The notes: a model not told the origin generated them from the letters alone. A stretch of DNA of 64,000 nt from a virus (IMGVR_UViG_3300043419_000731:32001-96000), one strand, 5' to 3'. Shown: positions 46,172-61,108, counted from the stretch's first letter. Translations and numbers: made by a program.

Positions 46172-48001
46172 ATGTCAACAAAAATTCTTTTTAGAAGAGA
46201 CACATCAGCAAATTGGACAACAGTAAATCCAATCTTACTTGCTGGAGAAATTGGTATTGAAACAGATACTTATAAGTTTAAAATAGGAAATGGCTCAAGA
46301 TGGAATCAGCAGCCATTCTATGCATTTAAGGTCGGAGCTCCAAATGGAGTAGCTCAACTAGGAGCGACTGGTAAAATTCCTCTTGATCAGGTCCCAGACT
46401 ACCAATCAGTAAATACTGAAGTTACACAGAAGGTTAATGAAAAGTTTGCAGCACAGACTACAAGCAACTTAGCAGAAGGACAAAATTTATATTTTACAGA
46501 AGCTAGAGCAATAGCAGCAAACGCAACAGCAATTTCCCATGCAGTATCCGATGAGGCTACAGCAAGAAATCAAGCAATTGCTACAGCTAAAAATGAAGCA
46601 ATTGCAACAGCTGCATCAAATACAACATCAGCAATTGCCACAGCAAGAACTGGAATAATTTCTCAAGCTTACGGAGATGCAACAGATATAGCCTCAGCTC
46701 TTATACAGCAAGAATCTGCTGCAAGAGTATCTGAAATTGCAGCAGCAATAGAGCAAGAAGAATCTGATAGAAACTCTGCAATTAATACAGCAATATCAAA
46801 TGAAATTATAAATAGAAATACTGCTATTAATTCAACTACAACTACTCAAATTGCAGAAGGAGATAATTTATACTTTACTGAGGCAAGAGCCAAAAGCGCA
46901 GTTGCTTCAGACATAGCAACAGCAGTAGCTGGAGTATCTCTTACAGGCAAGACAACAAATAATTTAGCTGAAGGCTCAACAAATCTTTACTTTACAAATG
47001 CCAGAGCAATATCTGCAACAAATTCAAGATTTACACAAGCAACCATTTATACTAATCAAGTTGCAGATGACCTTAGAACAGAGATTAGTCAAAATTATGT
47101 CTCTAACAGTGGACTGCAAAACCAATTAGATTCTTATGTTCTTGAAGGAGATAGAAATGCTGCAGGTGGATTTGCTGGACTAGATTCATCTTCAAAAGTT
47201 TTAGACTCAGTACTTCCATCCACAATTGCAAGAGTTTCTGATATTGATGCAGCTATAGATGCAATAATTGATTCTGCTCCAGGCGCTTTAGATACATTAA
47301 ATGAATTAGCAGCTGAATTAGCAAACGGACAATCAGCGGTTGCTTCTTTAACAAATGTAATCAATACAAAACTAGATTCGTCTTTAGCCTCTACAACATA
47401 TGCTCCAAAAGCAAACCCAACTTTTACTGGCACAGTTTCTGGAGTAACAAAGACACATGTCGGACTAGGAAATGTAGACAACACTTCAGATCTTAATAAG
47501 CCAATTTCATTATTAACTGATGCAGCATTAGATTTAAAAGCTAATATAAATAACCCTACATTTACTGGATCGATTGATTTTTCAAATGTCACAGTAACTG
47601 GGCTAACAGCTATTGCTGGGCTACCAGACCAGAGCAGCAACTCTGGAAAGTATTTGATGACAAATGGAGTTAACCCTAGCTGGGAGACACTAGATGTTTC
47701 TGCTCTTGCTCCATTAGATAATCCAACATTTACTGGGACAGTATCATTTCAGAATGCTACTGTAAACTTTGCAGATTCATCAATCACCAGCTCTTCATTA
47801 GCAGGAACTATACCAAATGCTAAACTAGAAAACTCATCTATTACATTAAATGGTAATTTGATTAACTTGGGCTCAACAGTAACTCTTGGAGGATACTATA
47901 ACCCAGCAGGTGAAAATGTAAGAAACAAGATAATATACGGAACTTCTGTTGATGCGCCTGCGGGATCATATTCTGCAGGAGATATTTATATTCAATACTA
48001 A
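46172..48001 (+). CDS. Tail fibre-like protein with Mtd-N/hyaluronidase-N-type N-terminus
   Basis: RRDTSANWTTVNPILLAGEIG.ETDT; repeated T.NLAEG.NLYFT.ARA; DSAPGALDTLNELA; GLGNVDNTSD. Confidence 0.75.
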   Translation: MSTKILFRRDTSANWTTVNPILLAGEIGIETDTYKFKIGNGSRWNQQPFYAFKVGAPNGVAQLGATGKIPLDQVPDYQSVNTEVTQKVNEKFAAQTTSNLAEGQNLYFTEARAIAANATAISHAVSDEATARNQAIATAKNEAIATAASNTTSAIATARTGIISQAYGDATDIASALIQQESAARVSEIAAAIEQEESDRNSAINTAISNEIINRNTAINSTTTTQIAEGDNLYFTEARAKSAVASDIATAVAGVSLTGKTTNNLAEGSTNLYFTNARAISATNSRFTQATIYTNQVADDLRTEISQNYVSNSGLQNQLDSYVLEGDRNAAGGFAGLDSSSKVLDSVLPSTIARVSDIDAAIDAIIDSAPGALDTLNELAAELANGQSAVASLTNVINTKLDSSLASTTYAPKANPTFTGTVSGVTKTHVGLGNVDNTSDLNKPISLLTDAALDLKANINNPTFTGSIDFSNVTVTGLTAIAGLPDQSSNSGKYLMTNGVNPSWETLDVSALAPLDNPTFTGTVSFQNATVNFADSSITSSSLAGTIPNAKLENSSITLNGNLINLGSTVTLGGYYNPAGENVRNKIIYGTSVDAPAGSYSAGDIYIQY

Positions 48002-48015
48002 GAACGGAGATATAA

Positions 48016-50898
48016 GTGCCATTTAAAATTTTTGACGGTTCATCGTGGCTTCCATCTAAAAAAATTAAAGTCAATACCGAACTTGGTATGCAAGACTATA
48101 AAAAGGCATTTATATTTGACGGCACAAACTGGGTTGAAGTTTTAGAAAAACCAAAAAATCTTACTGTTCCAGAGCTTTCCTTTTCTAGAGGACAAGAGCT
48201 TTATGGTGCAGATCAAACTGTAACAGCTACTAACGGAACCTGGGAAGGAACCGTATCATCTTACAAGTATCAGTGGCAAAAAGGAATATACGCTGGCTCT
48301 CAGATAGATTGGTCTGATATCACAGATGCAATAAACAATAGCTTTATTATACCAGGAGATTTAGTAGGGTATAAATTAAGATGTGCTGTAACTGCAGTAA
48401 ATAATGCAGGAGATAGCGAAAAGGCATACGGAACAACAATTGGAATCATCCTTCCTGAATTTGTTCAAACAATAACAGCCTTTGTGCAACAAGATGCAGA
48501 CGGATATGTAAATGGAAAGATAAGAGTGTTCTGGGATGTTTCAGAAGGTGCAGACGGATATTTATTGATTTATCAAGGTCCTGGAATTGCTAGAACAGAA
48601 AAGAAAATTATTGGTAAAAGTAATAACCTGTTTGACTGGGATTTTGGTGCAACAAACGTTAATGATCTAATAGGAATGACAAGCTTATCGATATACGTTG
48701 GCCCATACAATGATACAAGCTCTGCTGCAGCAGCATATAGAGCGGCTAACGGAATTGGTGATAGCCAAACACCAACATTCTATCAATCTGGAGGAATCAA
48801 TGACCTTCTTCCAAAAAAACCAATTGTAACCTCTTTAGCAGTTGCAATTACACCGTATGTTTATGACACAGCAATTCAAATGAGCTGGTCACTAAGTAAT
48901 ATAACTCAATCATCATTTTCAGCGGAGTATCAGTATTTTAACGATGAAACCCTAGAATATGGATGGGCACCTTACAGATCTGGAACAACAGAGCAAAGCG
49001 TTTACATGCCTATTGGACCAGGATTTAGTTTTGATGGATTAAGAGTTGTAGTTTCGGGAACTTCTAGAGGATTTGCAGGACCATTCATTGGCGTTTCTAA
49101 TTCACCAACTTCTGCATATCTTGCACCAGCAATTTATACAAAACCATTCTTAACCCCAAGCACTAATGTTCAAGTGGGAGAAGTTATATCTGCTACCCAA
49201 GGAGTATGGGATTATAACCCAACATCATATACTTTAGATATATTAAAAAATGGAGTTTCAGTAGCATCTGGAACACAAAGCTGTTCATACACAACAGTAT
49301 TATCAGATGCTAATGCTACATTTACTGTTAAAGCAAGTGCTACAAATCCAGGTGGCACAACAGAGTCTTACGGAGACTATTCAATACAATGCCTTAACAC
49401 ATCCACCGTCCCCGCAAACGGTGTTGCTCAAATTTATGGAACTGGTAGAGTTGGAACACAAATTACAATGAGCACAAGCGGCTGGACAGGAAATCCAACT
49501 CCTTCAATAACTACAAGCTTGCAGCGCATGAACTACTCTGGAGGCTATGATGACATGGGAGTTACATCCTATACTGTACAAGAATCAGATCTTTCAGTTG
49601 GTTCAAAAGGCGGAACAATCGCTGCAATTTTTAGAGCACGAGCAACAGCTAGCAATATAGCGGGATCAACTTCTGCCTATTCAGATTATCTTCAAGTTTC
49701 AAGTAATACATTTACAGTTCCAAGCTTCTTAGGTGGAGGAGTTCCACAAGGTGCAAGTAACTATACTATTACAAATGGTGGAGCGCTATATAAAACAACA
49801 GCTCTAAGCCAAGCGGGTACAGTAGCAGCTCAGTATCCAACAGCAGGAACAACTGCAACTATTGGTGTAGATATCACAGTTTATACTTATTATTATGAGG
49901 CCGCTGCAGTACTTGCTTCTGGTGGGGTAGCTTCTATTTCTGGAAGTGGTCAGGTTGGTTCAACTATTACTGCATCTGCTAGCGGATGGTCTGGAAGCCC
50001 AACTCCAACCGTAACAACTCAATTACAGCGCATGAATTATGCTGGAGGGTATGATGATATGGGTGTAACATCATACACCGTACAATCATCTGATCTAAGC
50101 GTTGGAACTAAGGGTGGTGCAATTCCACAATACTTCAGAGCAATTTCAAGAGCAACTAACTCAGCAGGAACTGCAGAAGTTTACTCTGATTATGTACAAG
50201 CAAGCGCAGCACCAGTAACTCCATCATTCCCATTCTTCCCTGACTTTGTGGCGCCACCGTCATTCCCTTACTTCCCAGCATTTAAGGCACCTTCATTCCC
50301 ATTCTTCCCTGATTTTGTTGCACCGCCTTCATTCCCTTATTTCCCAGAATTTATGAAAGCACCATCATTTGTAGCGCCACCTTCATTCCCATTCTTCCCT
50401 GACTTTGTTGCTGCGCCTTCATTCCCTTATTTCAAAGTTACAAAATGTATTGAGTCAAATACAAGACTATTAACTTTTGATAGAGGATATGTTGCAGCTA
50501 GAGACATACAGCTAGGAGACAAGTTAGTTTCAATATCTGCAGAAGATTTCGGAAACGAATCAATGAAGTGGTTTAACATTAAAGATAATGTTAAGCTTGT
50601 AGAAGTTGAAGTTGTTAAATCTGAGATGTCAGTTAAAGATGTGTTGTCATTTAACGGAACAGAAAAGTACTTCTCTTATGGTCAACCAATATTCATTAAA
50701 AAAGACGGGCTTGCAACATGGATAGAGTCAGGCTCAGTTAACATTGGAGATGCATTACTAGAACTTGATCCCGCCACTGGTGAGATAAATGAAGTTATAG
50801 TTGACTCAATACAAGCAGATACAGACAAAGAAGTTTATGACATTAGAACATCAGGCAACCAATGGTTTATTGCAGAACAATTTATTGTTATAAGTTAA
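48016..50898 (+). CDS. Large tail-region protein: Ig-like repeats, Pro/Phe repeat, C-terminal Hint domain (Cys811-end)
   Basis: GTW.G...Y.YQW Ig-like units; duplicated LQRMNY.GGYDDMGVTSYTVQ.SDLSVG.KGG; PSFPFFPDF repeats; K|CIESNTRLLT...VYDIRT...WFIAEQFIVIS. Confidence 0.8.
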   Translation: MPFKIFDGSSWLPSKKIKVNTELGMQDYKKAFIFDGTNWVEVLEKPKNLTVPELSFSRGQELYGADQTVTATNGTWEGTVSSYKYQWQKGIYAGSQIDWSDITDAINNSFIIPGDLVGYKLRCAVTAVNNAGDSEKAYGTTIGIILPEFVQTITAFVQQDADGYVNGKIRVFWDVSEGADGYLLIYQGPGIARTEKKIIGKSNNLFDWDFGATNVNDLIGMTSLSIYVGPYNDTSSAAAAYRAANGIGDSQTPTFYQSGGINDLLPKKPIVTSLAVAITPYVYDTAIQMSWSLSNITQSSFSAEYQYFNDETLEYGWAPYRSGTTEQSVYMPIGPGFSFDGLRVVVSGTSRGFAGPFIGVSNSPTSAYLAPAIYTKPFLTPSTNVQVGEVISATQGVWDYNPTSYTLDILKNGVSVASGTQSCSYTTVLSDANATFTVKASATNPGGTTESYGDYSIQCLNTSTVPANGVAQIYGTGRVGTQITMSTSGWTGNPTPSITTSLQRMNYSGGYDDMGVTSYTVQESDLSVGSKGGTIAAIFRARATASNIAGSTSAYSDYLQVSSNTFTVPSFLGGGVPQGASNYTITNGGALYKTTALSQAGTVAAQYPTAGTTATIGVDITVYTYYYEAAAVLASGGVASISGSGQVGSTITASASGWSGSPTPTVTTQLQRMNYAGGYDDMGVTSYTVQSSDLSVGTKGGAIPQYFRAISRATNSAGTAEVYSDYVQASAAPVTPSFPFFPDFVAPPSFPYFPAFKAPSFPFFPDFVAPPSFPYFPEFMKAPSFVAPPSFPFFPDFVAAPSFPYFKVTKCIESNTRLLTFDRGYVAARDIQLGDKLVSISAEDFGNESMKWFNIKDNVKLVEVEVVKSEMSVKDVLSFNGTEKYFSYGQPIFIKKDGLATWIESGSVNIGDALLELDPATGEINEVIVDSIQADTDKEVYDIRTSGNQWFIAEQFIVIS

Positions 50899-50944
50899 TA
50901 AATAATCCTGTATAATATATGAATAGGCAGTAAGAGGAGGAAAA

Positions 50945-51496
50945 ATGGCTACCAGCTTTCCAACAGATATAGACAACCTCTCGAATCCATCTGCAAATGA
51001 TGAGCTTACGGGACACGCAGCACAACATGCAAATGCCAACGATGCAATTGAAGCAATTCAATCAAAGCTTGGTGTGGACGGGTCAACTGATGAGAATTCA
51101 ATTGACTATAAGGTAACAAACCTTGAAGCACTTGTAACAAATGTTACTAATAACTCAAACGCAACTTCAGAACTATTGGGTCTTGAGGGAAATAATGACT
51201 TAACAGTTTATGGCATTGAAAACCCAACAAATATAGATTCATTTGCAAAAAACACATGGAGAACAGTTAGATACAATCTACAAGTAACCAAAAACAACGA
51301 AGTGTATACATCAGAGATACTAGCTTCACATGATGGAACTGACATAATGATCTCAGAAACAAACATTATGTCTAATACAAATAACAATCTATTTACTTAT
51401 ACATTTGAAGAAAATTCAGGTATAATTAGTTTAAGAATCACCCCTACTTCTGGCGAAATTTCTGTAAGATTTATACGCACAGCAGTAAAGGCATAA
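50945..51496 (+). CDS. Virion structural protein
   Basis: MATSFPTDID...H..QH.NANDAIEAIQ.KLG; GAGGAGG RBS. Confidence 0.6.
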   Translation: MATSFPTDIDNLSNPSANDELTGHAAQHANANDAIEAIQSKLGVDGSTDENSIDYKVTNLEALVTNVTNNSNATSELLGLEGNNDLTVYGIENPTNIDSFAKNTWRTVRYNLQVTKNNEVYTSEILASHDGTDIMISETNIMSNTNNNLFTYTFEENSGIISLRITPTSGEISVRFIRTAVKA

Positions 51497-51523
51497 AAAA
51501 AGCAACAAGAGGAGTCATAAAAT

Positions 51524-53188
51524 ATGGCAACAGTAGACAAAAACTTTAGAATTAAAAATGGCCTGGTCGTTGAAGGAGCTACAGCAACGGTCAATGGCAA
51601 TGATATACTTACAAAAGATGCTGGTGATTCTTATATCATTAACCTTATTGGTGGAACAGCAACATCTGCAAATACACCAAGCACAGTTGTAAAGCGTGAT
51701 GCAAATGGTAATTTCGAGGCAGGCACACTAGCACTAACTGGAATTACAGTTCAAGATGCTGGTAGTATCTTTGAAGATTCTGGCCTTGTCATTCAGTCAA
51801 ATAGCGGATATTCAATTGACATTCTTGGTAACCAGGATGTAACTATTTCATCTAGCAATGGAGACATTAACCTTAATCCAGATGGATCTGCTAAGGTCAA
51901 TGGACAGGTAATTGCAACAAGAATTTATGCAGACGATGCCGCTTCAACAGCACAAGCAAATGCAGCTTCAGATGCTACAACAAAAGCTAACGCAGCACAG
52001 CTAGCAGCCGAAACAACAGCAGCACTAGATGCTACAAGCAAGGCTAATCAGGCTCTTTCAGATGCACAGGCGTATGCACAAAATGCAGCAAATGCAGCAC
52101 AGTCAAATGCAGAGTTCTTTGCAACATCTGCAGATTCAACACTATACGGAACAATTTCAGCTGACATCATAACTGCAATTGCTAATGAAGAAACAGCTCG
52201 TAATTCTGCTATTGATTCAGCAATAATGACAGAAGAGTCAGCTCGTAATTCTGCAATCAATACAGCAATTACAACAGAAGTTTCAGATAGAAACTCTGCA
52301 ATTGCAACTGCAAAAAATCAAGCGATTGCAGATGCTAATTCTTACACAGATGGCAAGGTAGCAGAGCTTGTAGATTCAGCACCAGAACTTCTTGACACAC
52401 TTAATGAGTTGGCTGCAGCTATTGCTGATAACCCAAATTATGCATCAGATGTTGCTAACCTAGTTGCAACAAAAGCTGACACAACATATGTAGACTCAGA
52501 AATTTCTGATCTAGATGCAGCAGCTCAGGGCTATGCCAATACAGCCCAGTCAAATGCTGAGGCAACTGCATCAGCAGATGCAACAACTAAGGCTAACGCA
52601 GCTCAAGCAGCAGCTGAGGCAACTGCATCAGCAGATGCAACAACTAAGGCTAACGCAGCTCAAGCAGCAGCTGAGGCAACTGCATCAGCAGATGCAACAA
52701 CTAAGGCTAACGCAGCATATGACAATGCTGTAGCCGCAGCAGCAACTGATGCTACAGATAAGGCTAATACAGCCCAGTCAAATGCTGAAGCAACTGCACA
52801 AACTGCGCTCAATTCAGTACTTGCGGGAGATACAAACTTCACAGAGGTTTCAATCGACTGGATGGTAAAGCATGTTGGATCATACGCATACCAGGCTGGA
52901 ACTACCGAAACCGTAGCCTATAGCTGGAACCATAATGCAGGAGCTTCAGCTAAGTTCTTAGTTAGAATTAAGAATGGAATTCACTCACAGGTGTCTGAGG
53001 TTCTTTTGACTAGAGATGATGCAAATAATATTGCTATCACAGAATACGGCATGGTTACTACAAACGGCATACTTGGAGACATTACAGCCGCTATGAATCA
53101 GAATAATATAGATCTTAAGGTAACCCCAGCACATAACACTGGAACAGAGATCTTTGTTTCTGGTACACTTCTAAGATACGCAGATTAA
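51524..53188 (+). CDS. Tail fibre-like Ala-rich protein with 19-aa tandem repeats
   Basis: MATVDKNFRIKNGL; ADATTKANAA repeats; DSAPELLDTLNELA. Confidence 0.7.
   Translation: MATVDKNFRIKNGLVVEGATATVNGNDILTKDAGDSYIINLIGGTATSANTPSTVVKRDANGNFEAGTLALTGITVQDAGSIFEDSGLVIQSNSGYSIDILGNQDVTISSSNGDINLNPDGSAKVNGQVIATRIYADDAASTAQANAASDATTKANAAQLAAETTAALDATSKANQALSDAQAYAQNAANAAQSNAEFFATSADSTLYGTISADIITAIANEETARNSAIDSAIMTEESARNSAINTAITTEVSDRNSAIATAKNQAIADANSYTDGKVAELVDSAPELLDTLNELAAAIADNPNYASDVANLVATKADTTYVDSEISDLDAAAQGYANTAQSNAEATASADATTKANAAQAAAEATASADATTKANAAQAAAEATASADATTKANAAYDNAVAAAATDATDKANTAQSNAEATAQTALNSVLAGDTNFTEVSIDWMVKHVGSYAYQAGTTETVAYSWNHNAGASAKFLVRIKNGIHSQVSEVLLTRDDANNIAITEYGMVTTNGILGDITAAMNQNNIDLKVTPAHNTGTEIFVSGTLLRYAD
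52556..52716 (+). repeat. 57-bp perfect tandem repeat, about 2.8 copies (in frame)
   Basis: Unit GCTGAGGCAACTGCATCAGCAGATGCAACAACTAAGGCTAACGCAGCTCAAGCAGCA at 52556, 52613 and 52670. Confidence 0.9.
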
Positions 53189-53256
53189 TAATTAAATAAA
53201 AGGTTTGGGGTCCTTTCAAAACCCCACCAAATAACATTAGGGGATAGTGAACTTAA

Positions 53257-53628
53257 ATGGCAACAGTAGATAAAAATTTTAGAGTAAAGAATGGTCTAAA
53301 CGTAGCAGGTACTGCAAACTTTGATTCGGCAGTAAATGTAAATAACTTAGTCTTAAATTCGGCCCCCCTAGCTTATGACTCATCAACTGGTAGATTAAAA
53401 ATCCAGATTGACGGGGCATGGAAAGAGGTTGCATTCTTAACAGATGCAGCTGAAGATCTAGGAGCATTAACCTTCATGGATATCGGCTTGGCTATCGATT
53501 ATGATGGGCAGCCAGTATATACAGTTTTTGCAAATGGAGTAAACACAACAGCTACAAAATTTGCAGATGGTGGAATTTACTCCACAGATGTTTACAGCAT
53601 GACTTTTGACTCTGGAACAATTAATTAA
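53257..53628 (+). CDS. Virion structural protein sharing its N-terminus with 51524-53188
   Basis: MATVDKNFRVKNGL. Confidence 0.6.
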   Translation: MATVDKNFRVKNGLNVAGTANFDSAVNVNNLVLNSAPLAYDSSTGRLKIQIDGAWKEVAFLTDAAEDLGALTFMDIGLAIDYDGQPVYTVFANGVNTTATKFADGGIYSTDVYSMTFDSGTIN

Positions 53629-53689
53629 TTGTTTTAGAGCCTTTGTGATGCTATAATTACCAAATAAGTCTAAATAAGGGGTGGCATAA

Positions 53690-56074
53690 ATGTCAACAGT
53701 AAGAATTCAAGTAAGAAGAGGCACAGCTTCACAGTGGACCTCAGTAAATCCAATTTTGGCAGCAGGAGAAATGGGTGTCGAGTCAGACACAAACCTATTT
53801 AAATTCGGTAACGGAACTTCTACATGGACTGCCCTTGCATATGCAAATAATTCAGACGTAGCAATCGCTGAAATATCACAGGATGCAATTAATACCGCTC
53901 TCTCAATGGGCTCAGGTTTAACAAAGTCATACAATGATGGCACAAATACAATTCAGATCACAGTTGATTCAGATGTTGTTGCCCTAAAGTCATATGTAGA
54001 CTCAGCAATTTCAAATGTCGAGGCATCAGTAACAGGCCTTGCAAATACAGTTGATTCAGACTATATTCCAGTATCTGACCGTGGTGTCGCTGGTGGAGTT
54101 GCATCACTCGATAACAGTGGTTTAATTCCAAACTCACAGATCGATGACACAAATTGGGCAACAAAGCTACACGTAGCCTCAGTTTCTTCTGGGCTTCAGA
54201 TTAAGGGTTCAGTACGTGTAACATCTACAGATAACTTTGCTGCAACACTAACAGATGGAACAACAGATGCATCAGGCGGAAATGGTGTAGGACAATACTT
54301 AACAGCATCAGCTAATGGAGCACTTGTAATTGATGGTGTAACACTAAATGCAGGAGACAGAGTTCTTCTTAAGGATCAGTCTGACGGCAAGCAAAATGGT
54401 ATTTACACAGTAACAAATACAGGTGGATCTTCAGCAGCAGCAGTTTTAACTCGTGCTACAGATGCAGATAACAGCGTAGACGGAGAAGTCAGAGAAGGCC
54501 TCTTCGCATTTACTCAAGAAGGAACTGCAAATGCTCGTGACGGATACGTTCTTCTAGCAGCAGCATCAAGATCAGGACAGATTTTCCAGCTTGGCACAGA
54601 CTCACTAACATTTAGCCAATTTACTGGAGCAATCCCAGTAAATATTTCTACAGGCCTACAGAAGACTGGCGATACAATTTCAGTAAATACATCTGAAATT
54701 GCAACAGTTAACTATGTAGACGGAATTAATAATGCTCTAACTCAAATAACAACATCACATGGAGAACAAATTGATGCTGTTGAGATTAAGAATAATGAGC
54801 AGGATTCAGCAATAGCTATTAATACAGCAGATATTGCAACAAATACAGCAAGTATTAGCTCAATCGTAACTGTAAATAATACACAGAATACCAGACTAAC
54901 ATCACTAGAAGCAGCTGATGTAACTCTTGGAGGCTTGCTAGACGATGCTAATACAGCAATTGCAGACCTAGAGACAGAGCTCAGAGGAGACCTTGCTCCA
55001 AAGAACAATGCTGAATTTACAGGTACTCTTGACTTGCCATCAACAACAACAATAGGCACAGTCCTTGGAACAGAGATTGCACATCTATCAGGTGTGACAT
55101 CTGGAATCCAGACACAGATTGATTCAAAAGCATCAAATACAGATCTTTCAGATCACGCAGCCGACACATTATCGGTTCACGGTATTTCAGATACATCAGA
55201 ACTTGAGACACAGACTGGCGCACAAGCAAAAGCAGATAACGGCAGAGATGCAGCAAAAGCTTATGCAGATAGCCTTGCATCAAACTATGACGCAGCTGGA
55301 GCAGCAACATCAGCAGTTGGCACACACAACAATGCCACAACATCTGTTCATGGAATTGCTGATACATCAAAGCTTGTAACAACAGATGCACAGTCCATAA
55401 CATTAGATGGAGCATTAACAGTTGAGGGCAACCTTACTGTAAACGGTACAACATTTAACGCATCAGCAACATCTATTACAATTGAAGATAATCTAGTACA
55501 ACTTGCACATCAAAATGCAGGTAATACAGTAGATCTTGGAATCGTAGTCGCTTACAATGATGGATCTGCAAAGCATGCAGGTTTTGTAAGAGACGTATCT
55601 GATAATGAGTGGAAGCTCTTTAAGGGCGTAACAGATGAACCAGCAACAACTGTTAACTTCAGCCAGGGGTCACTAGATAATCTTGAGCTAAATAACTTAG
55701 TTGCAGCAGGCGTAGTCTTTACAGATGGAACACAGACAAAGCAGGGTGTACCTTCTATAACTCCTATCGTAGAAAAAACAGCAGGCTTCAATATTTCAGA
55801 TGCTGATTATAGAGATCAGATGCTTGAGGTCAGCCACACAGGTGGAAGCGCTGTAACAATAACAGTAACTGCAGATGGAACAAACGGTATCACATACCCA
55901 GTTGGAACATCTATCAGCATAACAAGAACTAATACAGGATCTGTAACAGTAGCAGGTTCTGGAACAACAGTTAATGCTACACCAGGATTAACTTTAAGAG
56001 CACGATGGTCATCAGCGACATTATTCAAGAGAGCAGCTAACACCTGGATCTTGATGGGCGATTTGACAGCGTAA
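53690..56074 (+). CDS. Tail fibre-like protein with Mtd-N-type N-terminus
   Basis: IQVRRGTASQWTSVNPILAAGE.GVESDT; IDGVTL.AGDRVLLKDQ...QNGIY; C-terminal YPVGT.I...G.TVNATPGLTLR.RWS.ATL.K. Confidence 0.78.
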   Translation: MSTVRIQVRRGTASQWTSVNPILAAGEMGVESDTNLFKFGNGTSTWTALAYANNSDVAIAEISQDAINTALSMGSGLTKSYNDGTNTIQITVDSDVVALKSYVDSAISNVEASVTGLANTVDSDYIPVSDRGVAGGVASLDNSGLIPNSQIDDTNWATKLHVASVSSGLQIKGSVRVTSTDNFAATLTDGTTDASGGNGVGQYLTASANGALVIDGVTLNAGDRVLLKDQSDGKQNGIYTVTNTGGSSAAAVLTRATDADNSVDGEVREGLFAFTQEGTANARDGYVLLAAASRSGQIFQLGTDSLTFSQFTGAIPVNISTGLQKTGDTISVNTSEIATVNYVDGINNALTQITTSHGEQIDAVEIKNNEQDSAIAINTADIATNTASISSIVTVNNTQNTRLTSLEAADVTLGGLLDDANTAIADLETELRGDLAPKNNAEFTGTLDLPSTTTIGTVLGTEIAHLSGVTSGIQTQIDSKASNTDLSDHAADTLSVHGISDTSELETQTGAQAKADNGRDAAKAYADSLASNYDAAGAATSAVGTHNNATTSVHGIADTSKLVTTDAQSITLDGALTVEGNLTVNGTTFNASATSITIEDNLVQLAHQNAGNTVDLGIVVAYNDGSAKHAGFVRDVSDNEWKLFKGVTDEPATTVNFSQGSLDNLELNNLVAAGVVFTDGTQTKQGVPSITPIVEKTAGFNISDADYRDQMLEVSHTGGSAVTITVTADGTNGITYPVGTSISITRTNTGSVTVAGSGTTVNATPGLTLRARWSSATLFKRAANTWILMGDLTA

Positions 56075-56103
56075 TAATTCAAAGAAAGAAATTGGAGATA
56101 TAA

Positions 56104-57411
56104 ATGTCAAACAAAAAAGTAGGAATTAAATCTTCCGCCCAAGACAACTTCTTAGAGCCAAGTGCTGTAACGTCTTTATCAGCAACTGCTGTAAATGGCG
56201 GAAATAATGGAAATGGTACTGTTAACTTAACATGGTCACTTCCAGCCGCATCACCGCCAGCAACACTTTACACAGTAACATCAAATCCAGCTACAACTAC
56301 ACAAACATCAGCTAGCACATCAATAACATTTAATGGGCTTACTGGAGGAACATCTTATACGTTTACAGTAGTAGCTTCAAATGCAGCAGGAAATAGCTTG
56401 CCAACTAGCACCACATCTGGTGTTACACCAACTACACTTCCTAATGCGCCCTCAGCTCCAATAGCTTCTTCGCCAAATGCTAACCAGGACGTTATATCCT
56501 GGTCAGCACCATCTTCTAATGGTGGATCAACAATTACAGGATATAGATTAAAGTCCTCAGATGGTCCAACATATGATTATGATGCTAATACAACATCAGC
56601 AACAATTAGCGAATCAGCTGGAACAGCACAGACATATCAGGTTTTGGCAAAGAACTCGAATGGAGATGGTCCGTACTCAGTATCAAGTAATACTATTACG
56701 ACAACTGCTCCATTCTTCCCATTCTTCCCGCCATACTTCCCTTACTTCCCACCTTACTTCCCATACTTCCCACCTTACTTCCCATTCTTCCCGTTCTTCC
56801 CACCGTTCTTCCCACCGTTCTTCCCGTTCTTCCCACCGTTCTTCCCACCGTTCTTCCCGTTCTTCCCACCGTTCTTCCCACCGTTCTTCCCATTCTTCCC
56901 ACCGTTCTTCCCACCATACTTTGCAGCACCATCGTTCCCTTACTTTAAGGTAACAAAGTGTATTGCAGGAGATTCTGAAGTACTTACAACATCAGGATAC
57001 AAGCCAGCAAAGGAATTAAATGTAGGAGATAAACTTCTTACAGTTGATCCAAAAGACTTCAATAATGGTGAAATAACATCAGAGCTAAGTTTGCCAGACA
57101 AGGTATTCCTCTCTGAAACATCAATCGCCACTATCGAGTTGAGCCAAAAGGCACTGCTAAGCTTCAATGACTCACTGATTAAATTCTCAGACGCACAACC
57201 AATATTTGTGAAAGACGGAGAGTTTATTAAGTACAAGACAACTGGAGAAGTAGCTGTAGGAGATATCCTTGCAGAAGTAAATCCAGAAACATGCCAGGTA
57301 ACATACACAACAGTAGAAAAGATTACTGAGCATGAAGCAGGAGATGTCTACGATATCCGATGCTTACCGAACCAGTGGTTCATCGTAGGAAATTATATAG
57401 TAATCTCCTAA
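56104..57411 (+). CDS. FN3-domain protein with 71-aa Pro/Phe/Tyr-only repeat and C-terminal Hint domain (Cys286-end)
   Basis: Two FN3-like units (LTW..P, GLT.GTSYTFTV.A.NAAG.S; P.AP.AP...W.APS.NGGS.ITGY); K|CIAGDSEVLT...GD...VYDIRC...WFIVGNYIVIS. Confidence 0.85.
   Translation: MSNKKVGIKSSAQDNFLEPSAVTSLSATAVNGGNNGNGTVNLTWSLPAASPPATLYTVTSNPATTTQTSASTSITFNGLTGGTSYTFTVVASNAAGNSLPTSTTSGVTPTTLPNAPSAPIASSPNANQDVISWSAPSSNGGSTITGYRLKSSDGPTYDYDANTTSATISESAGTAQTYQVLAKNSNGDGPYSVSSNTITTTAPFFPFFPPYFPYFPPYFPYFPPYFPFFPFFPPFFPPFFPFFPPFFPPFFPFFPPFFPPFFPFFPPFFPPYFAAPSFPYFKVTKCIAGDSEVLTTSGYKPAKELNVGDKLLTVDPKDFNNGEITSELSLPDKVFLSETSIATIELSQKALLSFNDSLIKFSDAQPIFVKDGEFIKYKTTGEVAVGDILAEVNPETCQVTYTTVEKITEHEAGDVYDIRCLPNQWFIVGNYIVIS
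56710..56922 (+). repeat. Low-complexity in-frame repeat encoding (FFP/FFPP/YFP)n
   Basis: TTCTTCCC(A/G) and TTCTTCCCACCG units with 33-bp higher-order period. Confidence 0.9.
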
Positions 57412-57424
57412 AGTAATTAAACAT

Positions 57425-57457
57425 AATCAGGAGGGGTAGCACTTACCCCTCCTGATT
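57425..57457 (+). terminator. Intrinsic terminator
   Basis: AATCAGGAGGGGTA-gcact-TACCCCTCCTGATT followed by a T-rich tract. Confidence 0.85.
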
Positions 57458-57517
57458 ATTTTATATAAAAAGCTTGTCTCCTGAATAATAAAATGCTATA
57501 CTAAACAAGGAGGCAAA

Positions 57518-58270
57518 ATGAGTATTCAAGATACATGGTTTGATAAAGATAGATCTGAGACTTCTTCAAATAGAAGACCAGACAAAACATTTAATGGCAT
57601 CACTGTTAAGAATGAGGCCCTAGGCTTAGATGTATACAAAAATGTATTTACATCTAGTCAGATTCAGAAATACATTAATGCGCTAGAAAATAATTTAAAG
57701 CCAGACACAGAGTTCTTCTGGAATGAAGCAAGAGTTACAAACTCTGAAACACCAATTAAAAAAGCAAGAGATTGCGTAGACTTTAAGATGAACTACGCCT
57801 CACTTGGCGGAGCACAGAATCAAAAGAATGCTGAGCTTTGGGAAACATATGATGAGATCTACAAAGCCCTAAAATCATGCGTGGACGACTATTGCAGGTA
57901 CTGGGGAATCAATGTTACATACTATGAGGTTTTTAACTTTGTAAAGTATGAAGGCGAAGGCAAAGAGTTTAAGATTCATGCTGATGATGGACCAGCATAC
58001 AAAGCAGCCGTATCTGCAGTTATTTATTTAAACAATGACTATGAAGGCGGAGAGATAGCTTTCCCAAGAATGGATAATTTGGTAATTAAGCCAGACCTTG
58101 GGGATATTGCAATATTCCCATCAAACTATATTTACGAGCATGCTTCACTTCCCATTAGATCTGGAACAAAGTATTGCGTAGTTATTATGATGGACTTAAA
58201 TGATTTAGCTCATCAAAATAATAGAATGCAAGGAAGCCCTTCTGCATTCGGAAAAGAATCAGGATATTAA
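57518..58270 (+). CDS. 2OG-Fe(II) oxygenase, P4H-like
   Basis: HAD...YLNNDYEGGE...HAS...KY. Confidence 0.9.
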   Translation: MSIQDTWFDKDRSETSSNRRPDKTFNGITVKNEALGLDVYKNVFTSSQIQKYINALENNLKPDTEFFWNEARVTNSETPIKKARDCVDFKMNYASLGGAQNQKNAELWETYDEIYKALKSCVDDYCRYWGINVTYYEVFNFVKYEGEGKEFKIHADDGPAYKAAVSAVIYLNNDYEGGEIAFPRMDNLVIKPDLGDIAIFPSNYIYEHASLPIRSGTKYCVVIMMDLNDLAHQNNRMQGSPSAFGKESGY

Positions 58271-58271
58271 T

Positions 58272-58967
58272 ATGCAAGCAGAAACTAAAGAAATTGATTT
58301 TAAAGCTGAATGGGCAGAGCCAATCAAGCAGACCTGGACAGAAAAGATTGATCTAGGTTCTGGCATTTGGCTATACAAGAATGTTATCCCAACAGATATC
58401 CCAGCTAGACTGGAAGAACTATTAGCAGACCCATCTAACCCGTATAACTGGATGGAAGCTTTTGTGGGGTACCAACAGAGTATGCCAGAGTATAGAGACT
58501 GTGTTGACTTTAAGTATAAGAAGACAGATATTAATGACCCAAGCGAAGCTGGACAAAAGCTAGTAAAGATTTGGGAGGAGTGCTATGAGCCACAAAGACA
58601 GGCTGTAAGAGATTACTCTAGAATGTATAATATTAATCAGCTTAGATACTGGGAAGCATTCAACTTTATTAGATATACACCAGGAAATCACTTTATGGAG
58701 CACCACGATCATGGATACTCATATAACTGCACAGTTTCACTTGTAGGATATTTTAATGATGACTACGAAGGTGGAGAGCTATACTTTAGACTTCAGAACT
58801 TAAATCTAAAGCCAGAAGCTGGAGATCTTTTTATCTTCCCTTCAACATATATGTATCCACACCAAGCCAAAAAGGTGCACTCAGGAACAAAGTACTCAAT
58901 TGTAACAATGCTTGATTACAGCGAGAAGTTCCATGATCCAAAGTTTTTCCAAGAGACTGGAAACTAA
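58272..58967 (+). CDS. 2OG-Fe(II) oxygenase, P4H-like
   Basis: HHD...YFNDDYEGGEL...HQA...KY. Confidence 0.9.
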   Translation: MQAETKEIDFKAEWAEPIKQTWTEKIDLGSGIWLYKNVIPTDIPARLEELLADPSNPYNWMEAFVGYQQSMPEYRDCVDFKYKKTDINDPSEAGQKLVKIWEECYEPQRQAVRDYSRMYNINQLRYWEAFNFIRYTPGNHFMEHHDHGYSYNCTVSLVGYFNDDYEGGELYFRLQNLNLKPEAGDLFIFPSTYMYPHQAKKVHSGTKYSIVTMLDYSEKFHDPKFFQETGN

Positions 58968-59683
58968 TGATTAACCTTACAGCCTATCAGATGGGCACAG
59001 AAACTGCATCGGTTGAGCCTTTGCAAGTAACTAGAGACTGGATGGATGCAACACCAGAAAAGCATGCATACCATTGTTTTCCAGTAACTCAAGCCAATAC
59101 TGTAGGCTGGACAATCTCTATGCCAGTAGATATTAAATTTATTTGGGATGGAGTAAATGATACAAGCGGGAATCATATAGAGATACTAGAGGGCAATAGC
59201 TTTGTTTATACAGGAAGAGGTCAGTCTTCTGTAAGCTTTAATACAAACCTATTGTTTAGATCAGAAAGCAATGTTAGCTTATTAACAATGACACCACCTA
59301 ACTATTTTAATCCAGATTATCAAGTTATTGGTTCTGTTATATCTACATCATTTTTTAGAAACCCTCTACCGCTTGCAATTAAAGCATTGACTCCAAATAA
59401 AGAAATTTTAATACCTGCAGGAACACCAATTGCAACAATATTGCCAATATCTTTATCTGAACTCAAAGACTCTGTTGTAGAGGTTAAAAAGTTTCCTCAA
59501 GAAGATATGTATGAGTGGAATGAAAAGAATAGAGCCTATGGAGATGCAGCTCAAGTCTTATCCACAAAGGGCGAGTGGACTGATTGGTATAGAGATGCTG
59601 TTGATCAAGACGGCAACAAGATTGGTGAACACGAAGCTAAATCACTTAAGCTTAAAACAGTATACGTAGATACAGAGGTATAA
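58967..59683 (+). CDS. DUF6065-like protein
   Basis: RDWMDATP..HAYHCFP..QAN..GW...W...Y..A. Confidence 0.65.
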   Translation: MINLTAYQMGTETASVEPLQVTRDWMDATPEKHAYHCFPVTQANTVGWTISMPVDIKFIWDGVNDTSGNHIEILEGNSFVYTGRGQSSVSFNTNLLFRSESNVSLLTMTPPNYFNPDYQVIGSVISTSFFRNPLPLAIKALTPNKEILIPAGTPIATILPISLSELKDSVVEVKKFPQEDMYEWNEKNRAYGDAAQVLSTKGEWTDWYRDAVDQDGNKIGEHEAKSLKLKTVYVDTEV

Positions 59684-60415
59684 ATGTCTAACACCATTAA
59701 GTTTGTCAGTAATAGACCATGGCTAACAAAAGATAGCTCTTCAAAGCCAGAACCTATCATAAAGTCTATTCCAGATTGGTATAGAAAAGCTGACAGATTT
59801 GCTAAAAAACCAGATGGAGAATATTGGCAAGATCCTACAATTGGGGGAAAGATTCCTACATGGAAAGCTTGTCCAGCAATATTTGACATTATGGGAACAG
59901 GATATACGCTAAGAACTCCGTGTGATATTGAATTTATAAAGGGTGACTTCGGATCAATTGATTTTAAAATCTCTGATCCAAAGTATAAAGATTTTTGTAC
60001 CAAAAGAGAACCTATGCCACAATTTCATCAGCCAGAGGGATACTATGCAATTCACTTTGCTTGGTTCCCAGATTGGGCTATAGAGACTCCAGAAGGATAC
60101 AGTGTTCTTTACTCACAGCCTTTCAATAGATTTGAGTTGCCATTCCTAACTACATCTGGAATCATTGATAATGATAAGGTAAACTTGCCAGGGTCAATGC
60201 CTTTCTTTTTGCAAAAAGGTTTTAGTGGAATTCTTCCAGCAGGAACTCCTTACGCACAGATGCTTCCATTTAAAAGAGAAGACTGGGAGCATGAGATTGT
60301 TATAGAAAAAGCTTCAAAGCTACAAAGTAAAAATATGGAAAACTCAGCAAAATATAGAAAGCCAGACGGCGGAATATACAAAAACGAAGTATGGTCTAAG
60401 AGAACATACTCATGA
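59684..60415 (+). CDS. DUF6065-related / DSBH-like protein
   Basis: IPDWY.K...TWK.CPAIFD.M.TGY...TP.GYS.L...P.N...SGIIDND...GTP.AQ.LPFKRE.W. Confidence 0.55.
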   Translation: MSNTIKFVSNRPWLTKDSSSKPEPIIKSIPDWYRKADRFAKKPDGEYWQDPTIGGKIPTWKACPAIFDIMGTGYTLRTPCDIEFIKGDFGSIDFKISDPKYKDFCTKREPMPQFHQPEGYYAIHFAWFPDWAIETPEGYSVLYSQPFNRFELPFLTTSGIIDNDKVNLPGSMPFFLQKGFSGILPAGTPYAQMLPFKREDWEHEIVIEKASKLQSKNMENSAKYRKPDGGIYKNEVWSKRTYS

Positions 60416-60433
60416 GGATGGTATAATTAAATT

Positions 60434-61108
60434 ATGGAAGATAAAACATTAGCTAACGGTCCTGCAAACTGGGACAATCGTACTTCAATAACTCCTCCAG
60501 GATTCTTTGGTAATACTCCAGAGCATATCCAGGCAAGAGAAAATTTTATGACTGAAGAAGAAAGAACCTTTTTATTAGAAGCAGCAAAGTCTATTACGGA
60601 GTGGGATAGAACAGAAACACACTACAATGATGATGGAGTAATTATCTATGACTCAACATATTGGGATAACCGTGTTGCTTCAAGACCGATCCTGGACTCT
60701 ATAAATCCAGAGATATCAAATGTTATCGAAAAGCTCGTAGCTAGACTTAAAGTTGAAGTTGATAATCACTTTAAGGTAGACGCTATGCCAACAAGCCCAG
60801 CTATTGTTAGATGGATGGAAGGATATAGACAAGAGCCACATGCAGACAAGCAATTGCAGAATGGCGAGCCTAATGATTTCCCATGGTATGACCTAGCTGG
60901 TCTATTTTACTTAAATGATGATTATGAGGGTGGAGAGCTTTACTTCATGCATCACGATATTGAATTTAAGCCAAAGCCAGGAGCAGCATACTTCTTCCCA
61001 GGAGATGTTGGGTATAGCCATGGTGTAAGAGAAATAAAGAGCGGTATTAGATATGTTATTCCGTTCTTCTGGACTATTATGAAGCATACAGGAGATAAGC
61101 AGCCTTGA
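60434..61108 (+). CDS. 2OG-Fe(II) oxygenase, P4H-like
   Basis: HAD...YLNDDYEGGEL...HGV...RY. Confidence 0.9.
   Translation: MEDKTLANGPANWDNRTSITPPGFFGNTPEHIQARENFMTEEERTFLLEAAKSITEWDRTETHYNDDGVIIYDSTYWDNRVASRPILDSINPEISNVIEKLVARLKVEVDNHFKVDAMPTSPAIVRWMEGYRQEPHADKQLQNGEPNDFPWYDLAGLFYLNDDYEGGELYFMHHDIEFKPKPGAAYFFPGDVGYSHGVREIKSGIRYVIPFFWTIMKHTGDKQP

What the first reader, a model, noticed from the sequence alone, without database searches (positions are those of the whole stretch)
50221..57411. Top candidate: shared Pro/Phe-repeat + AAPSFPYFKVTK|C + terminal Hint module on two unrelated tail-region proteins
Seen: ORFs 48016-50898 (Ig-like) and 56104-57411 (FN3) have different N-terminal parts. 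Both end in a Pro/Phe-rich repeat, an identical 14-aa junction AAPSFPYFKVTKCI, and a Hint domain of exactly 150 aa (Cys at 50446 and 56959) running to the stop codon with no C-extein. The junction DNA differs at most third positions (gct gcg cct tca...aaa gtt aca aaa versus gca gca cca tcg...aag gta aca aag), so the peptide is under selection rather than recently copied. The Hint bodies themselves have diverged. Known: Hedgehog and BIL Hint domains form an N-terminal thioester that is cleaved or transferred to a nucleophile (cholesterol in Hh). Inference: an autoprocessing tag that exposes or ligates the new ...FKVTK C-terminus to a partner, lipid or virion protein. The adjacent Pro-rich segment would be the substrate for the oxygenase array starting 100 bp downstream and for the GT60-like enzyme. 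This would be a phage protein-maturation system (cleave/ligate + hydroxylate + glycosylate) that I cannot match to a described one.
Basis: partly seen in the sequence, partly recalled or inferred. Interest (0 to 1): 0.92.

Follow-up and report, generated by a model that had tools for sequence, protein, structure and literature searches.

The report
Self-cleaving Hint cap on phage fibres
Two tail-region proteins of an uncultured lake phage end in a proline/phenylalanine repeat capped by a real intein-like (Hint) domain that most likely cuts itself off, and the repeat is the likeliest target of the hydroxylase gene array next door; nothing here has been shown chemically.

Summary
ORFs 48016-50898 (960 aa, chain of Ig/FN3-like domains) and 56104-57411 (435 aa, two FN3) are unrelated in front. 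Both end in a Pro/Phe repeat, the same 14 residues AAPSFPYFKVTKCI, and a 150-aa domain that runs to the stop codon. Nine of the 14 junction codons differ, all at third positions.

The end domain is a true Hint fold (AF2 pLDDT 95; TM 0.7-0.77 to inteins and Hedgehog HhC; profile hit to BIL domain 2LWY, E 2.5e-6). Cys1 is never substituted. Block B reads S-x-x-Q instead of T-x-x-H, and the terminal His-Asn is gone. Only cleavage at K|C is possible, not splicing.

It belongs to a large family found only in metagenomes (291 cluster representatives). Pfam does not capture it, and I found no match in deposited phage genomes and no paper.

Orthologues swap the cap freely: Hint ending VIS, Hint ending HN-K, no cap, or a Cys-rich tail. 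Cap-less forms stop where cleavage would occur.

Pro-rich repeats go with 3 or more adjacent P4H-like genes in 57 of 58 cases, Pro-poor repeats in 1 of 21. This count is not phylogenetically corrected, and it holds with or without a Hint.

This scan's notes report the same system on at least 8 other genomes.

The parts
48016..50898 (+). Gene for the long protein P0001 (960 aa). Residues 1-733 are a chain of Ig/FN3-like beta-sandwich domains, followed by repeat, junction and Hint.
   Evidence: AF2 model of residues 1-810 has pLDDT 62 and is all-beta. Foldseek hits are to multi-Ig/FN3 chains.
50215..50445 (+). Pro/Phe-rich repeat of P0001 (residues 734-810), with a 23-aa unit of the type PSFPFFPDFVAPPSFPYFPxFKA.
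   Evidence: TRF finds a 69-bp unit x1.9 at 50224-50353. AF2 gives pLDDT under 50 and no secondary structure.
50410..50451 (+). Junction AAPSFPYFKVTK|CI of P0001. The predicted scissile bond is Lys810-Cys811.
50446..50895 (+). Hint domain of P0001 (150 aa, Cys811 to Ser960). The stop codon follows directly.
   Evidence: E 1.3e-65 to the family profile.
56104..57411 (+). Gene for the short protein P0002 (435 aa): conserved N-terminal peptide, two FN3 domains, repeat, junction, Hint.
   Evidence: More than 100 orthologues share the N-terminal motif KSSAQDNFLEP.
56710..56922 (+). 71 residues made only of Pro, Phe and Tyr (residues 203-273), with an 11-aa unit FFPFFPPFFPP.
   Evidence: TRF finds a 33-bp unit x5.3 at 91% matches. 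It is the most Pro-rich segment of any real gene in the 120-kb genome.
56923..56964 (+). Junction AAPSFPYFKVTK|CI of P0002. The predicted scissile bond is Lys285-Cys286.
56959..57408 (+). Hint domain of P0002 (150 aa, Cys286 to Ser435).
   Evidence: AF2 pLDDT 94.9. Foldseek hits to inteins, HhC and BIL2. Profile against PDB: 2LWY at E 2.5e-6.
57423..57459 (+). Terminator-like hairpin (17-bp stem, T-run) between the Hint gene and the oxygenase array.
57518..63989 (+). Nine tightly packed genes. Seven are 2OG-Fe(II) oxygenases of the P4H type (57518, 58272, 60434, 61105, 61842, 62636, 63348). The others are DUF6065 (58967-59683) and a phrog_7084 protein (59684-60415).
   Evidence: Pfam and PHROGs. 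The nearest solved relatives are prolyl and lysyl hydroxylases.
46172..48001 (+). Tail-fibre-type gene with an Mtd_N N-terminus, directly upstream of P0001.
51524..56074 (+). Tail-fibre-type genes between the two Hint genes: 51524-53188, 53257-53628 and 53690-56074 (the last with Mtd_N).
   Evidence: The block is syntenic in relatives.
18594..19583 (+). GT60-like glycosyltransferase (PF11397 'GlcNAc').
   Evidence: Pfam E 1.1e-30. A homologue lies near the gene in only 3 of 79 relatives.

Best explanation
Two virion appendage proteins of the tail-fibre module share one C-terminal cassette. One is a long chain of Ig-like domains and the other a short FN3-FN3 protein. The cassette is a disordered or polyproline-like aromatic/Pro repeat, a short basic tail (F-K-x-x-K), and a cleavage-only Hint domain of the bacterial intein-like kind.

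Proposed mechanism. Cys1 of the Hint attacks the Lys-Cys peptide bond (N-S acyl shift). The thioester is resolved by water or a small nucleophile. The 150-aa cap leaves, and the mature protein ends in ...FPYFKVTK. The cap would act like a self-removing C-propeptide that keeps the sticky repeat soluble or in register until assembly. This is the same logic as the Peptidase_S74 chaperone on the collagen-like fibre of this same phage.

The Pro-rich repeat is the most likely substrate of the adjacent array of seven prolyl-hydroxylase-like oxygenases.

Shown: the sequence features, the Hint fold, the conservation pattern and the co-variation with the array. Inferred: that cleavage happens, that the proteins sit in the virion, and that the repeat is hydroxylated.

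My odds: Hint fold 0.97; active self-cleavage 0.65; repeat is an oxygenase substrate 0.5.
For: Fold. AF2 gives pLDDT 94.9. Foldseek gives TM 0.70-0.77 to inteins, Hedgehog HhC (1at0, 6tyy) and BIL2 (6y75). The family profile hits BIL domain 2LWY at E 2.5e-6 and then inteins.

Catalytic nucleophile. Cys1 is present in 77 of 87 unique domains. The other 10 are alignment gaps, so there are no substitutions. In the window's subtype Cys1 is 20/20. Ser/Thr of block B, Asn70, Lys85 and Asp102 are near-invariant.

Missing His. Gln replaces the block B His in 29 of 57 relatives that still keep a canonical terminal His-Asn, so Gln seems compatible with activity in this family. Bulky -1 residues can compensate for a missing block B His, and some inteins naturally lack it (PMC6333167). 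Here -1 is K, Y or F in 17 of 20.

Position. The domain sits at the extreme C-terminus in nearly all of the 150 best hits.

Cap-less orthologues. Orthologues with the same N-terminus, FN3 domains and repeat lack any Hint. They stop right after the repeat with a basic tail (...PPRFGFRY*), which is where cleavage would leave the window's proteins.

Junction. It is kept identical in two paralogues despite 9 synonymous changes.

Structural-module context. Tail-fibre genes lie upstream and between the two genes. Downstream of the array lie a collagen + Peptidase_S74 fibre, the portal and the prohead protease.

Oxygenase link. Of repeats with 3 or more PP dipeptides, 57 of 58 have 3 or more 2OG genes within 10 kb downstream, usually starting within 120 bp. 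Of repeats with fewer than 3 PP, 1 of 21 do (Fisher 1.6e-16, Spearman 0.68). The two Hint proteins are the only real Pro-rich proteins in the genome. The array's nearest solved relatives are prolyl and lysyl hydroxylases, including PBCV-1 P4H.
Against: The block B His, the most conserved catalytic residue of Hint domains, is Gln in 20/20 of this subtype. The terminal His-Asn is Ile/Val-Ser. A degenerate, non-cleaving domain therefore cannot be excluded.

There are no protein-level data of any kind. No cultured phage carries the family.

The co-variation with the array is not phylogenetically independent. Only 3 supported independent pairs exist (sign test p 0.5).

Pro-poor relatives still carry 0-6 such oxygenases elsewhere, so some of these enzymes have other substrates.

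A terminator hairpin separates the Hint gene from the array.

Virion location is inferred from gene neighbourhood only.
Confidence: 0.55

Rival explanations
1. The Hint thioester is not hydrolysed but passed to a specific nucleophile: a Lys or hydroxyl of another virion protein, a neighbouring copy of the same protein, or an amine of the host cell wall. The fibre C-terminus would then become covalently attached, a Hedgehog- or sortase-like transfer.
For: Hint chemistry allows it. Hedgehog transfers to cholesterol, and A-type BIL domains ligate without a +1 nucleophile (my knowledge of Dassa et al. 2004; not read here). The junction carries conserved Lys residues: F-K-x-x-K, with K/R in the last six residues in 20/20. 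Two paralogues keep an identical 14-aa junction under purifying selection, as if read by one common partner. Some family members carry PASTA, a cell-wall-binding domain. The host is probably a Gram-positive actinobacterium (WhiB).
Against: Nothing follows the Hint that could bind an acceptor, and there is no SRR-like region. Cap-less orthologues that simply end after the repeat show that the protein can work with a plain free C-terminus.
Confidence: 0.13
2. The Hint domain is catalytically dead. It stays on the protein as a structural, oligomerising or binding end-knob of the fibre.
For: The block B His is replaced by Gln and the terminal His-Asn is lost throughout the subtype. The domain is well folded and conserved. 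C-terminal knobs are common on phage fibres (general knowledge).
Against: A dead domain has no reason to keep Cys at exactly position 1 in every member while the rest diverges to under 40% identity. Relatives with Gln still keep canonical His-Asn. The cap is lost or swapped at least 21 times on the tree of the N-terminal module. That fits a dispensable processing aid better than a receptor-binding tip.
Confidence: 0.2
3. The oxygenase array has nothing to do with the repeat. It modifies host proteins, small molecules, nucleic acids or the collagen-like fibre, and sits next to the Hint gene only through inherited synteny.
For: All surveyed loci come from one broad phage lineage with conserved gene order. 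Independent-pair tests have no power. Pro-poor phages keep 0-6 PF13640 genes elsewhere. A terminator separates the gene and the array. A collagen/S74 fibre gene follows the array. Aquatic phages often carry 2OG oxygenases of unknown role (general knowledge).
Against: The array is present in 57 of 58 Pro-rich cases and 1 of 21 Pro-poor cases. This holds across five different C-terminal types. The PP state changes at least 7 times on the tree, and never in the opposite direction to the array. The collagen-like runs here hold only two prolines. No other phage protein is Pro-rich. The enzymes' nearest solved relatives hydroxylate peptidyl Pro or Lys.
Confidence: 0.35
4. The repeat-plus-Hint cassette is a selfish or mobile intein-like module that has spread between genes, with no function for the phage.
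For: The same cassette sits on two unrelated proteins. The C-terminal type changes often between relatives.
Against: There is no homing endonuclease and no splicing capacity. The two Hint copies are only 38-42% identical, so both have been kept for a long time. Both genes keep the cassette in relatives. The junction is under purifying selection.
Confidence: 0.05

Closest known systems
Bacterial intein-like (BIL) domains, e.g. Clostridium thermocellum BIL (PDB 2LWY) and Tetrahymena BUBL BIL2 (PDB 6Y75)
   Same: Same Hint fold. 2LWY is the best sequence-profile match (E 2.5e-6), and Foldseek gives TM 0.68-0.69. Both have an N-terminal Cys nucleophile and sit in non-enzymatic, variable, surface-type proteins rather than in housekeeping enzymes. 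Neither has a homing endonuclease. Relatives of the window's domain end in His-Asn followed by a non-nucleophilic residue (Lys), as A-type BILs do.
   Different: The window's subtype has Gln for the block B His, has no terminal His-Asn and has no C-flank at all, so it can only cleave at its N-terminus. It is always preceded by an aromatic repeat. It is phage-encoded. No Pfam Hint model reaches its threshold.
Hedgehog C-terminal autoprocessing domain (HhC; PDB 1AT0, 6TYY)
   Same: A C-terminal Hint that cleaves the bond before its own Cys1 and so creates the mature C-terminus of the N-terminal 'signalling' part. TM 0.74.
   Different: HhC has T-x-x-H and a sterol-recognition region after the Hint that delivers cholesterol. 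Here the protein stops at the last Hint strand and His is Gln. No lipid acceptor is indicated.
Peptidase_S74 intramolecular chaperone of phage tail spikes and fibres (endosialidase CIMCD)
   Same: Functional analogy only: a C-terminal domain of a phage fibre that aids assembly and then cuts itself off. This phage uses S74 on its collagen-like fibre just past the window (E 2.1e-14).
   Different: Unrelated fold and chemistry (Ser-Lys dyad). There is no sequence or fold match to the Hint cap.
Chlorovirus PBCV-1 prolyl 4-hydroxylase (PDB 5C5T) with that virus's Pro-rich repeat proteins; mimivirus L230 collagen lysyl hydroxylase/glycosyltransferase (PDB 6AX6)
   Same: Virus-encoded collagen-type hydroxylases believed to act on the virus's own repeat proteins. 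Both are sequence relatives of the array (E 7.5e-6 and 6e-6).
   Different: Here there are seven paralogues in tandem plus DUF6065. The host is bacterial. The candidate substrate is an aromatic FFPP polymer, not PAPK or collagen. No activity has been shown.
Tko/Pho CDC21-1 inteins (PDB 6RPQ), which naturally lack the block B histidine
   Same: A Hint fold that activates the N-terminal junction without the block B His. 6RPQ is the top Foldseek PDB hit. A compensating bulky -1 residue is discussed in PMC6333167.
   Different: They are true splicing inteins with a C-extein and a terminal Asn, inserted in a replication protein.

Membership tests
Hint (Hedgehog/intein) superfamily | Horseshoe-like all-beta Hint fold | tested here: met
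   AF2 pLDDT 94.9. 61 PDB matches at E<=1e-3, all inteins, HhC or BIL, with TM up to 0.77. Profile against PDB: 2LWY at E 2.5e-6.
Hint (Hedgehog/intein) superfamily | Nucleophile (Cys/Ser/Thr) as first residue of the domain | tested here: met
   Cys at 50446 and 56959. Cys1 in 77 of 87 unique domains, the rest alignment gaps; 20/20 in this subtype.
Hint (Hedgehog/intein) superfamily | Block B T-x-x-H motif | tested here: not met
   The motif reads S-x-x-Q (FSDAQP and FSYGQP). Gln is 20/20 in this subtype, and aligns with the His of 2LWY. Ser conservatively replaces Thr; the His is absent.
Inteins (protein splicing) | C-terminal His-Asn followed by a C-extein beginning with Cys/Ser/Thr | tested here: not met
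   The domain ends ...IVIS and is followed by the stop codon. There is no C-extein.
Inteins (protein splicing) | Insertion in a conserved site of a host protein; often a homing endonuclease | tested here: not met
   The domain is terminal, not inserted. At 150 aa there is no room for an endonuclease.
A-type BIL domains | Cys1, terminal His-Asn, non-nucleophilic +1 residue | tested here: not met
   Not met by the window's two copies (no His-Asn). Met by the sister subtype that ends LVHN-K (57 of 87 unique domains).
Hedgehog HhC | Sterol-recognition region C-terminal to the Hint module | tested here: not met
   No residues follow the Hint.
Pre-toxin HINT (PF07591) of polymorphic toxins | Hint followed by a C-terminal toxin domain that it releases | tested here: not met
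   There is no downstream domain, and no Pfam PT-HINT hit for the window's proteins. The Atlas look-alike clusters carry that label only automatically.
Prolyl 4-hydroxylase-type 2OG-Fe(II) oxygenases (array genes) | PF13640 domain with the HxD...H iron triad | tested here: met
   Seven genes are above the Pfam threshold. H154, D156 and H208 are invariant in the paralogue alignment. The nearest PDB relatives are P3H1, B. anthracis P4H, LH3 and PBCV-1 P4H.
Prolyl 4-hydroxylase-type 2OG-Fe(II) oxygenases (array genes) | Hydroxylation of peptidyl proline | not testable with these tools
   Needs enzyme assays or mass spectrometry.

The most novel reading that the evidence does not exclude
The cap is not just cut off. 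Its thioester would be handed to a defined nucleophile: a Lys or hydroxyproline of a neighbouring fibre protein, or an amine of the actinobacterial cell wall. Together with multi-site prolyl hydroxylation by the seven-enzyme array, this would build a covalently cross-linked or covalently anchoring, extensin-like aromatic fibre. That would be a phage-encoded protein-ligation-plus-hydroxylation pathway with no described counterpart.
Probability: 0.12. Interest if true: 0.9.

Novelty: new variant of a known kind. Interest (0 to 1): 0.64.

Why it matters
First, it would add a third kind of self-removing C-terminal cap to phage fibre biology, beside S74 chaperones and separate chaperone proteins. 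It would also be a naturally minimal, cleavage-only Hint that works without the canonical histidine, which is of interest for intein chemistry and for self-cleaving tags.

Second, aquatic phages carry many 2OG-Fe(II) oxygenases that are usually filed as 'auxiliary metabolic genes' of unknown substrate. Here a concrete, phage-encoded, testable substrate candidate sits next to the array and co-varies with it. This suggests the enzymes tailor the virus particle rather than host metabolism.

Third, the family is abundant in lake viromes of probable actinobacterial phages. It is absent from Pfam and from deposited phage genomes.

Tried and rejected
Context came from the search for related loci instead.
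Nothing was folded.
- Megablast of 14 kb against 50,697 phage records gave no match. tblastn of P0002 gave none. tblastn of the Hint alone gave only chance-level hits at E>=0.2.
- No Pfam Hint model reaches its gathering score on any member. NCBIfam and PHROGs gave nothing for the Hint part.
- Six literature searches and four papers checked found no description of a Hint-capped phage fibre protein or of the FFPP repeat. Subscription journals are not covered.
- Phylogenetically independent pairs for 'Pro-rich repeat versus array': 2 supported pairs on the Hint tree and 3 on the N-module tree. The tests have no power, so the raw Fisher and Spearman values must not be read as independent evidence.
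- The GT60-like and radical-SAM genes are not regular neighbours of the repeat gene (GT60 in 3 of 79, rSAM in 2 of 79). I dropped them as parts of the system.
- Collagen-like fibre as the array's substrate: its Gly-X-Y runs hold two prolines only. It is kept as a minor rival.
- Class 3 intein reading (block F Cys nucleophile) is rejected. Cys1 is present, and the extra Cys in YDIRC is three residues past the block F position and is present in only 2 of the 24 VIS-type proteins aligned.

Full report
**1. The observation**

The window holds two + strand ORFs, 48016-50898 (P0001, 960 aa) and 56104-57411 (P0002, 435 aa). BLASTP finds nothing in common in their front parts. The last 163 residues align at 42% identity, E 3e-37.

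P0002 has two FN3 domains (Pfam E 3.6e-14). The first 733 residues of P0001 model as a string of beta-sandwich domains whose fold matches are multi-Ig/FN3 chains, but the model is only moderate at pLDDT 62.

Both proteins then run into an aromatic/Pro repeat. P0002 has 71 residues made only of Pro, Phe and Tyr, with a 33-bp unit x5.3. P0001 has a 69-bp unit x1.9. Next comes the identical peptide AAPSFPYFKVTKCI, and then exactly 150 residues to the stop codon.

In the 14 junction codons there are 9 differences, all at third positions, and none changes a residue. The identity is therefore maintained by selection, not by a recent copy.

The genome is a 120,465-bp virus record rated complete. It has just these two copies, 39% G+C and a WhiB gene, which points to an actinobacterial host.

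**2. The end domain is a genuine Hint domain**

Pfam gives only a sub-threshold Hint hit (E 0.0016). A profile of 11 family members hits the solved bacterial intein-like domain 2LWY at E 2.5e-6, followed by inteins.

AlphaFold2 on that alignment gives pLDDT 94.9. Foldseek returns only inteins, the Hedgehog autoprocessing domain (1AT0/6TYY, TM 0.74) and BIL2 (6Y75), with TM up to 0.77. In the viral structure library the best matches are unnamed or automatically named 'Fibronectin type III' and 'Hint domain containing' proteins of uncultured Caudovirales.

**3. Catalytic residues**

In 87 unique domains from viral contigs, position 1 is Cys in 77 and an alignment gap in the other 10. It is never substituted. 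Block B is S/T-x-x-Q/H. The window's subtype has Gln in 20 of 20. The sister subtype has Gln 29, His 26, Glu 2, although it keeps a canonical terminal His-Asn. Asn70, Lys85 and Asp102 are near-invariant.

The window's subtype ends (I/V)-V-(I/V)-S, where relatives have L-V-H-N-K. The penultimate His and the terminal Asn are therefore replaced, and nothing follows.

It follows that splicing and C-terminal cleavage are impossible. The only reaction left is the N-S acyl shift at Lys|Cys, followed by resolution of the thioester.

The missing His is a real caveat. [quoted passage not shown] Here -1 is Lys, Tyr or Phe in 17 of 20.

**4. The family**

An exhaustive HMMER search of 1.84 billion cluster representatives finds 291 proteins at E<=1e-3, 79 of them at E<=1e-10. 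In nearly all of them the domain is at the extreme C-terminus, and in nearly all full-length ones the 40 residues before it are rich in Pro/Phe/Tyr.

The N-terminal parts vary: FN3, PASTA, PKD, Ig-like. No Pfam Hint model reaches threshold on any member. No deposited phage genome matches. I found no paper that describes it.

Relatives that hold both genes keep a Hint on both. Their two junctions differ, so the identical junction is particular to this phage and its closest kin.

**5. The cap is interchangeable**

P0002 has a conserved N-terminal peptide (KSSAQDNFLEP). This allowed a survey of true orthologues: 175 complete genes, 89 after de-replication.

After the repeat they carry one of five endings:
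- a Hint ending VIS, as here;
- a Hint ending HN-K;
- a Hint with a 10-40-aa tail;
- nothing at all;
- a 15-30-aa Cys-rich tail.

The type changes at least 21 times on the tree of the N-terminal module.

The cap-less forms stop directly after the repeat with a short basic/aromatic tail (...PPRFGFRY*). That is the position and the kind of end that cleavage at K|C would give the window's proteins. All 20 VIS-type junctions have Lys or Arg within the last six residues.

This is the best comparative argument that the Hint is a removable cap, and that the mature, functional protein is the part in front of it.

**6. The oxygenase link**

After a strong hairpin terminator (57423-57459) come nine packed genes. 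Seven are PF13640 oxygenases, and the other two are a DUF6065 protein and a phrog_7084 protein. Their nearest solved relatives are prolyl 3- and 4-hydroxylases, collagen lysyl hydroxylases (including mimivirus L230) and PBCV-1 P4H.

Among 79 de-replicated orthologues with at least 8 kb downstream:
- repeats with 3 or more Pro-Pro dipeptides have 3 or more such genes within 10 kb in 57 of 58 cases, usually starting within 120 bp;
- repeats with fewer than 3, of the types (GAF)n, FGFTP and NYSNFY, have them in 1 of 21 cases.

Fisher's test gives 1.6e-16 and Spearman 0.68. The rule holds in every C-terminal class, with or without a Hint.

In this genome the two Hint proteins are the only real genes with long Pro-rich stretches. 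The collagen-like fibre behind the array has only two prolines in its Gly-X-Y runs.

Caveats:
- The loci belong to one broad, syntenic lineage.
- The PP state changes at least 7 times and the array state at least 5 times, never in opposite directions. Only 3 well-supported independent pairs exist (sign test p 0.5).
- Whole Pro-poor genomes still hold 0-6 such oxygenases elsewhere, against 7-10 in Pro-rich ones.

**7. Context**

The two genes lie among tail-fibre-type genes (Mtd_N termini, tail-fibre PHROGs).

Just past the window, the array is followed by a collagen-like fibre with a Peptidase_S74 self-cleaving chaperone (E 2.1e-14), a LamG-like protein, the portal and the prohead protease. 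The array is thus embedded in the virion module. The same phage already uses another kind of self-cleaving C-terminal cap on a fibre.

**8. Verdict**

It is a Hint, it can only cleave, and it most likely exposes the ...FKVTK end. The Pro-rich repeat is a good but unproven candidate substrate for the neighbouring hydroxylases.

The Hint and the hydroxylases are not one obligate pathway, because the repeat-array pairing does not need the Hint. Ligation to a partner remains possible but has no support.

Relative to the literature I could search, this is an undescribed variant of known parts: a BIL-type Hint and viral P4H-type enzymes. This scan's own notes report the same system on at least eight other genomes. 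They agree with what I tested here independently.

Noticed in passing
L149 9974-11161, L176 592-1632, L183 1411-2418 and others (orthologues of 56104-57411): In 14 de-replicated orthologues the Hint is replaced by a 15-30-aa Cys-rich tail after the FFPP repeat (e.g. ...HFVGGSFTLCSCCCCSGNTWFC*). All 12 of them that have at least 8 kb downstream keep a 6-8-gene oxygenase array. The role of the tail is unknown; disulphide knot, metal site or thioether are possibilities.
   Followed up: partly
L205, L211, L238, L239 (orthologues): Pro-free orthologues carry (Gly-Ala-Phe)n. This is a Gly-X-Y period like collagen, placed where this phage has FFPP, and they lack the adjacent oxygenase array.
   Followed up: partly
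Sister subtype, e.g. L024-L096; proteins P0036, P0039, P0046: Most relatives end L-V-H-N-K, a canonical His-Asn followed by exactly one Lys (or 2-7 residues with a K/R). This suggests either A-type-BIL-like ligation of a single Lys onto the repeat end, or a need for a peptide bond after Asn. In the window's subtype the Lys sits before the Cys instead.
   Followed up: no
L003 (491 aa), L004 (449 aa), L006 (435 aa); proteins P0160-P0172: Near-identical orthologues differ only in the number of repeat units (397-491 aa in total), so repeat length is polymorphic in natural populations.
   Followed up: no
window 57423-57459: A perfect 17-bp-stem hairpin with a T-run lies between the Hint gene and the oxygenase array. 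It reads as a terminator on both strands.
   Followed up: no
genome 95994-97211 (L023 698-1915), just past the window end: Collagen-like fibre with a Peptidase_S74 self-cleaving chaperone, followed by a LamG-like protein, the portal and the prohead protease. The oxygenase array therefore sits inside the virion module.
   Followed up: yes
window 12195-13196; L017 3469-4512, L019 11074-12066, L111, L120: The radical SAM/SPASM gene lies 0.6-1.2 kb downstream of a Hint gene in four relatives, but 37-44 kb upstream of the two Hint genes here.
   Followed up: partly
window 58967-59683 and 59684-60415: DUF6065 tracks the oxygenase array: it is in the locus in 56 of the 68 orthologues of the four mainly Pro-rich C-terminal classes and in 1 of the 11 'Hint_other' orthologues, which are nearly all Pro-poor. 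The phrog_7084 protein is present in both kinds.
   Followed up: partly
window 6415-6588 (genome 38415-38588): A WhiB-family gene (E 2.6e-12). Together with 39% G+C, this fits a phage of low-GC freshwater actinobacteria.
   Followed up: partly
window 48016-48140; P0036 and P0108 N-termini: The long protein starts with a duplicated F-D-G-x-x-W ... K motif, which recurs at the N-terminus of some other family members. It may be the virion attachment peptide.
   Followed up: no
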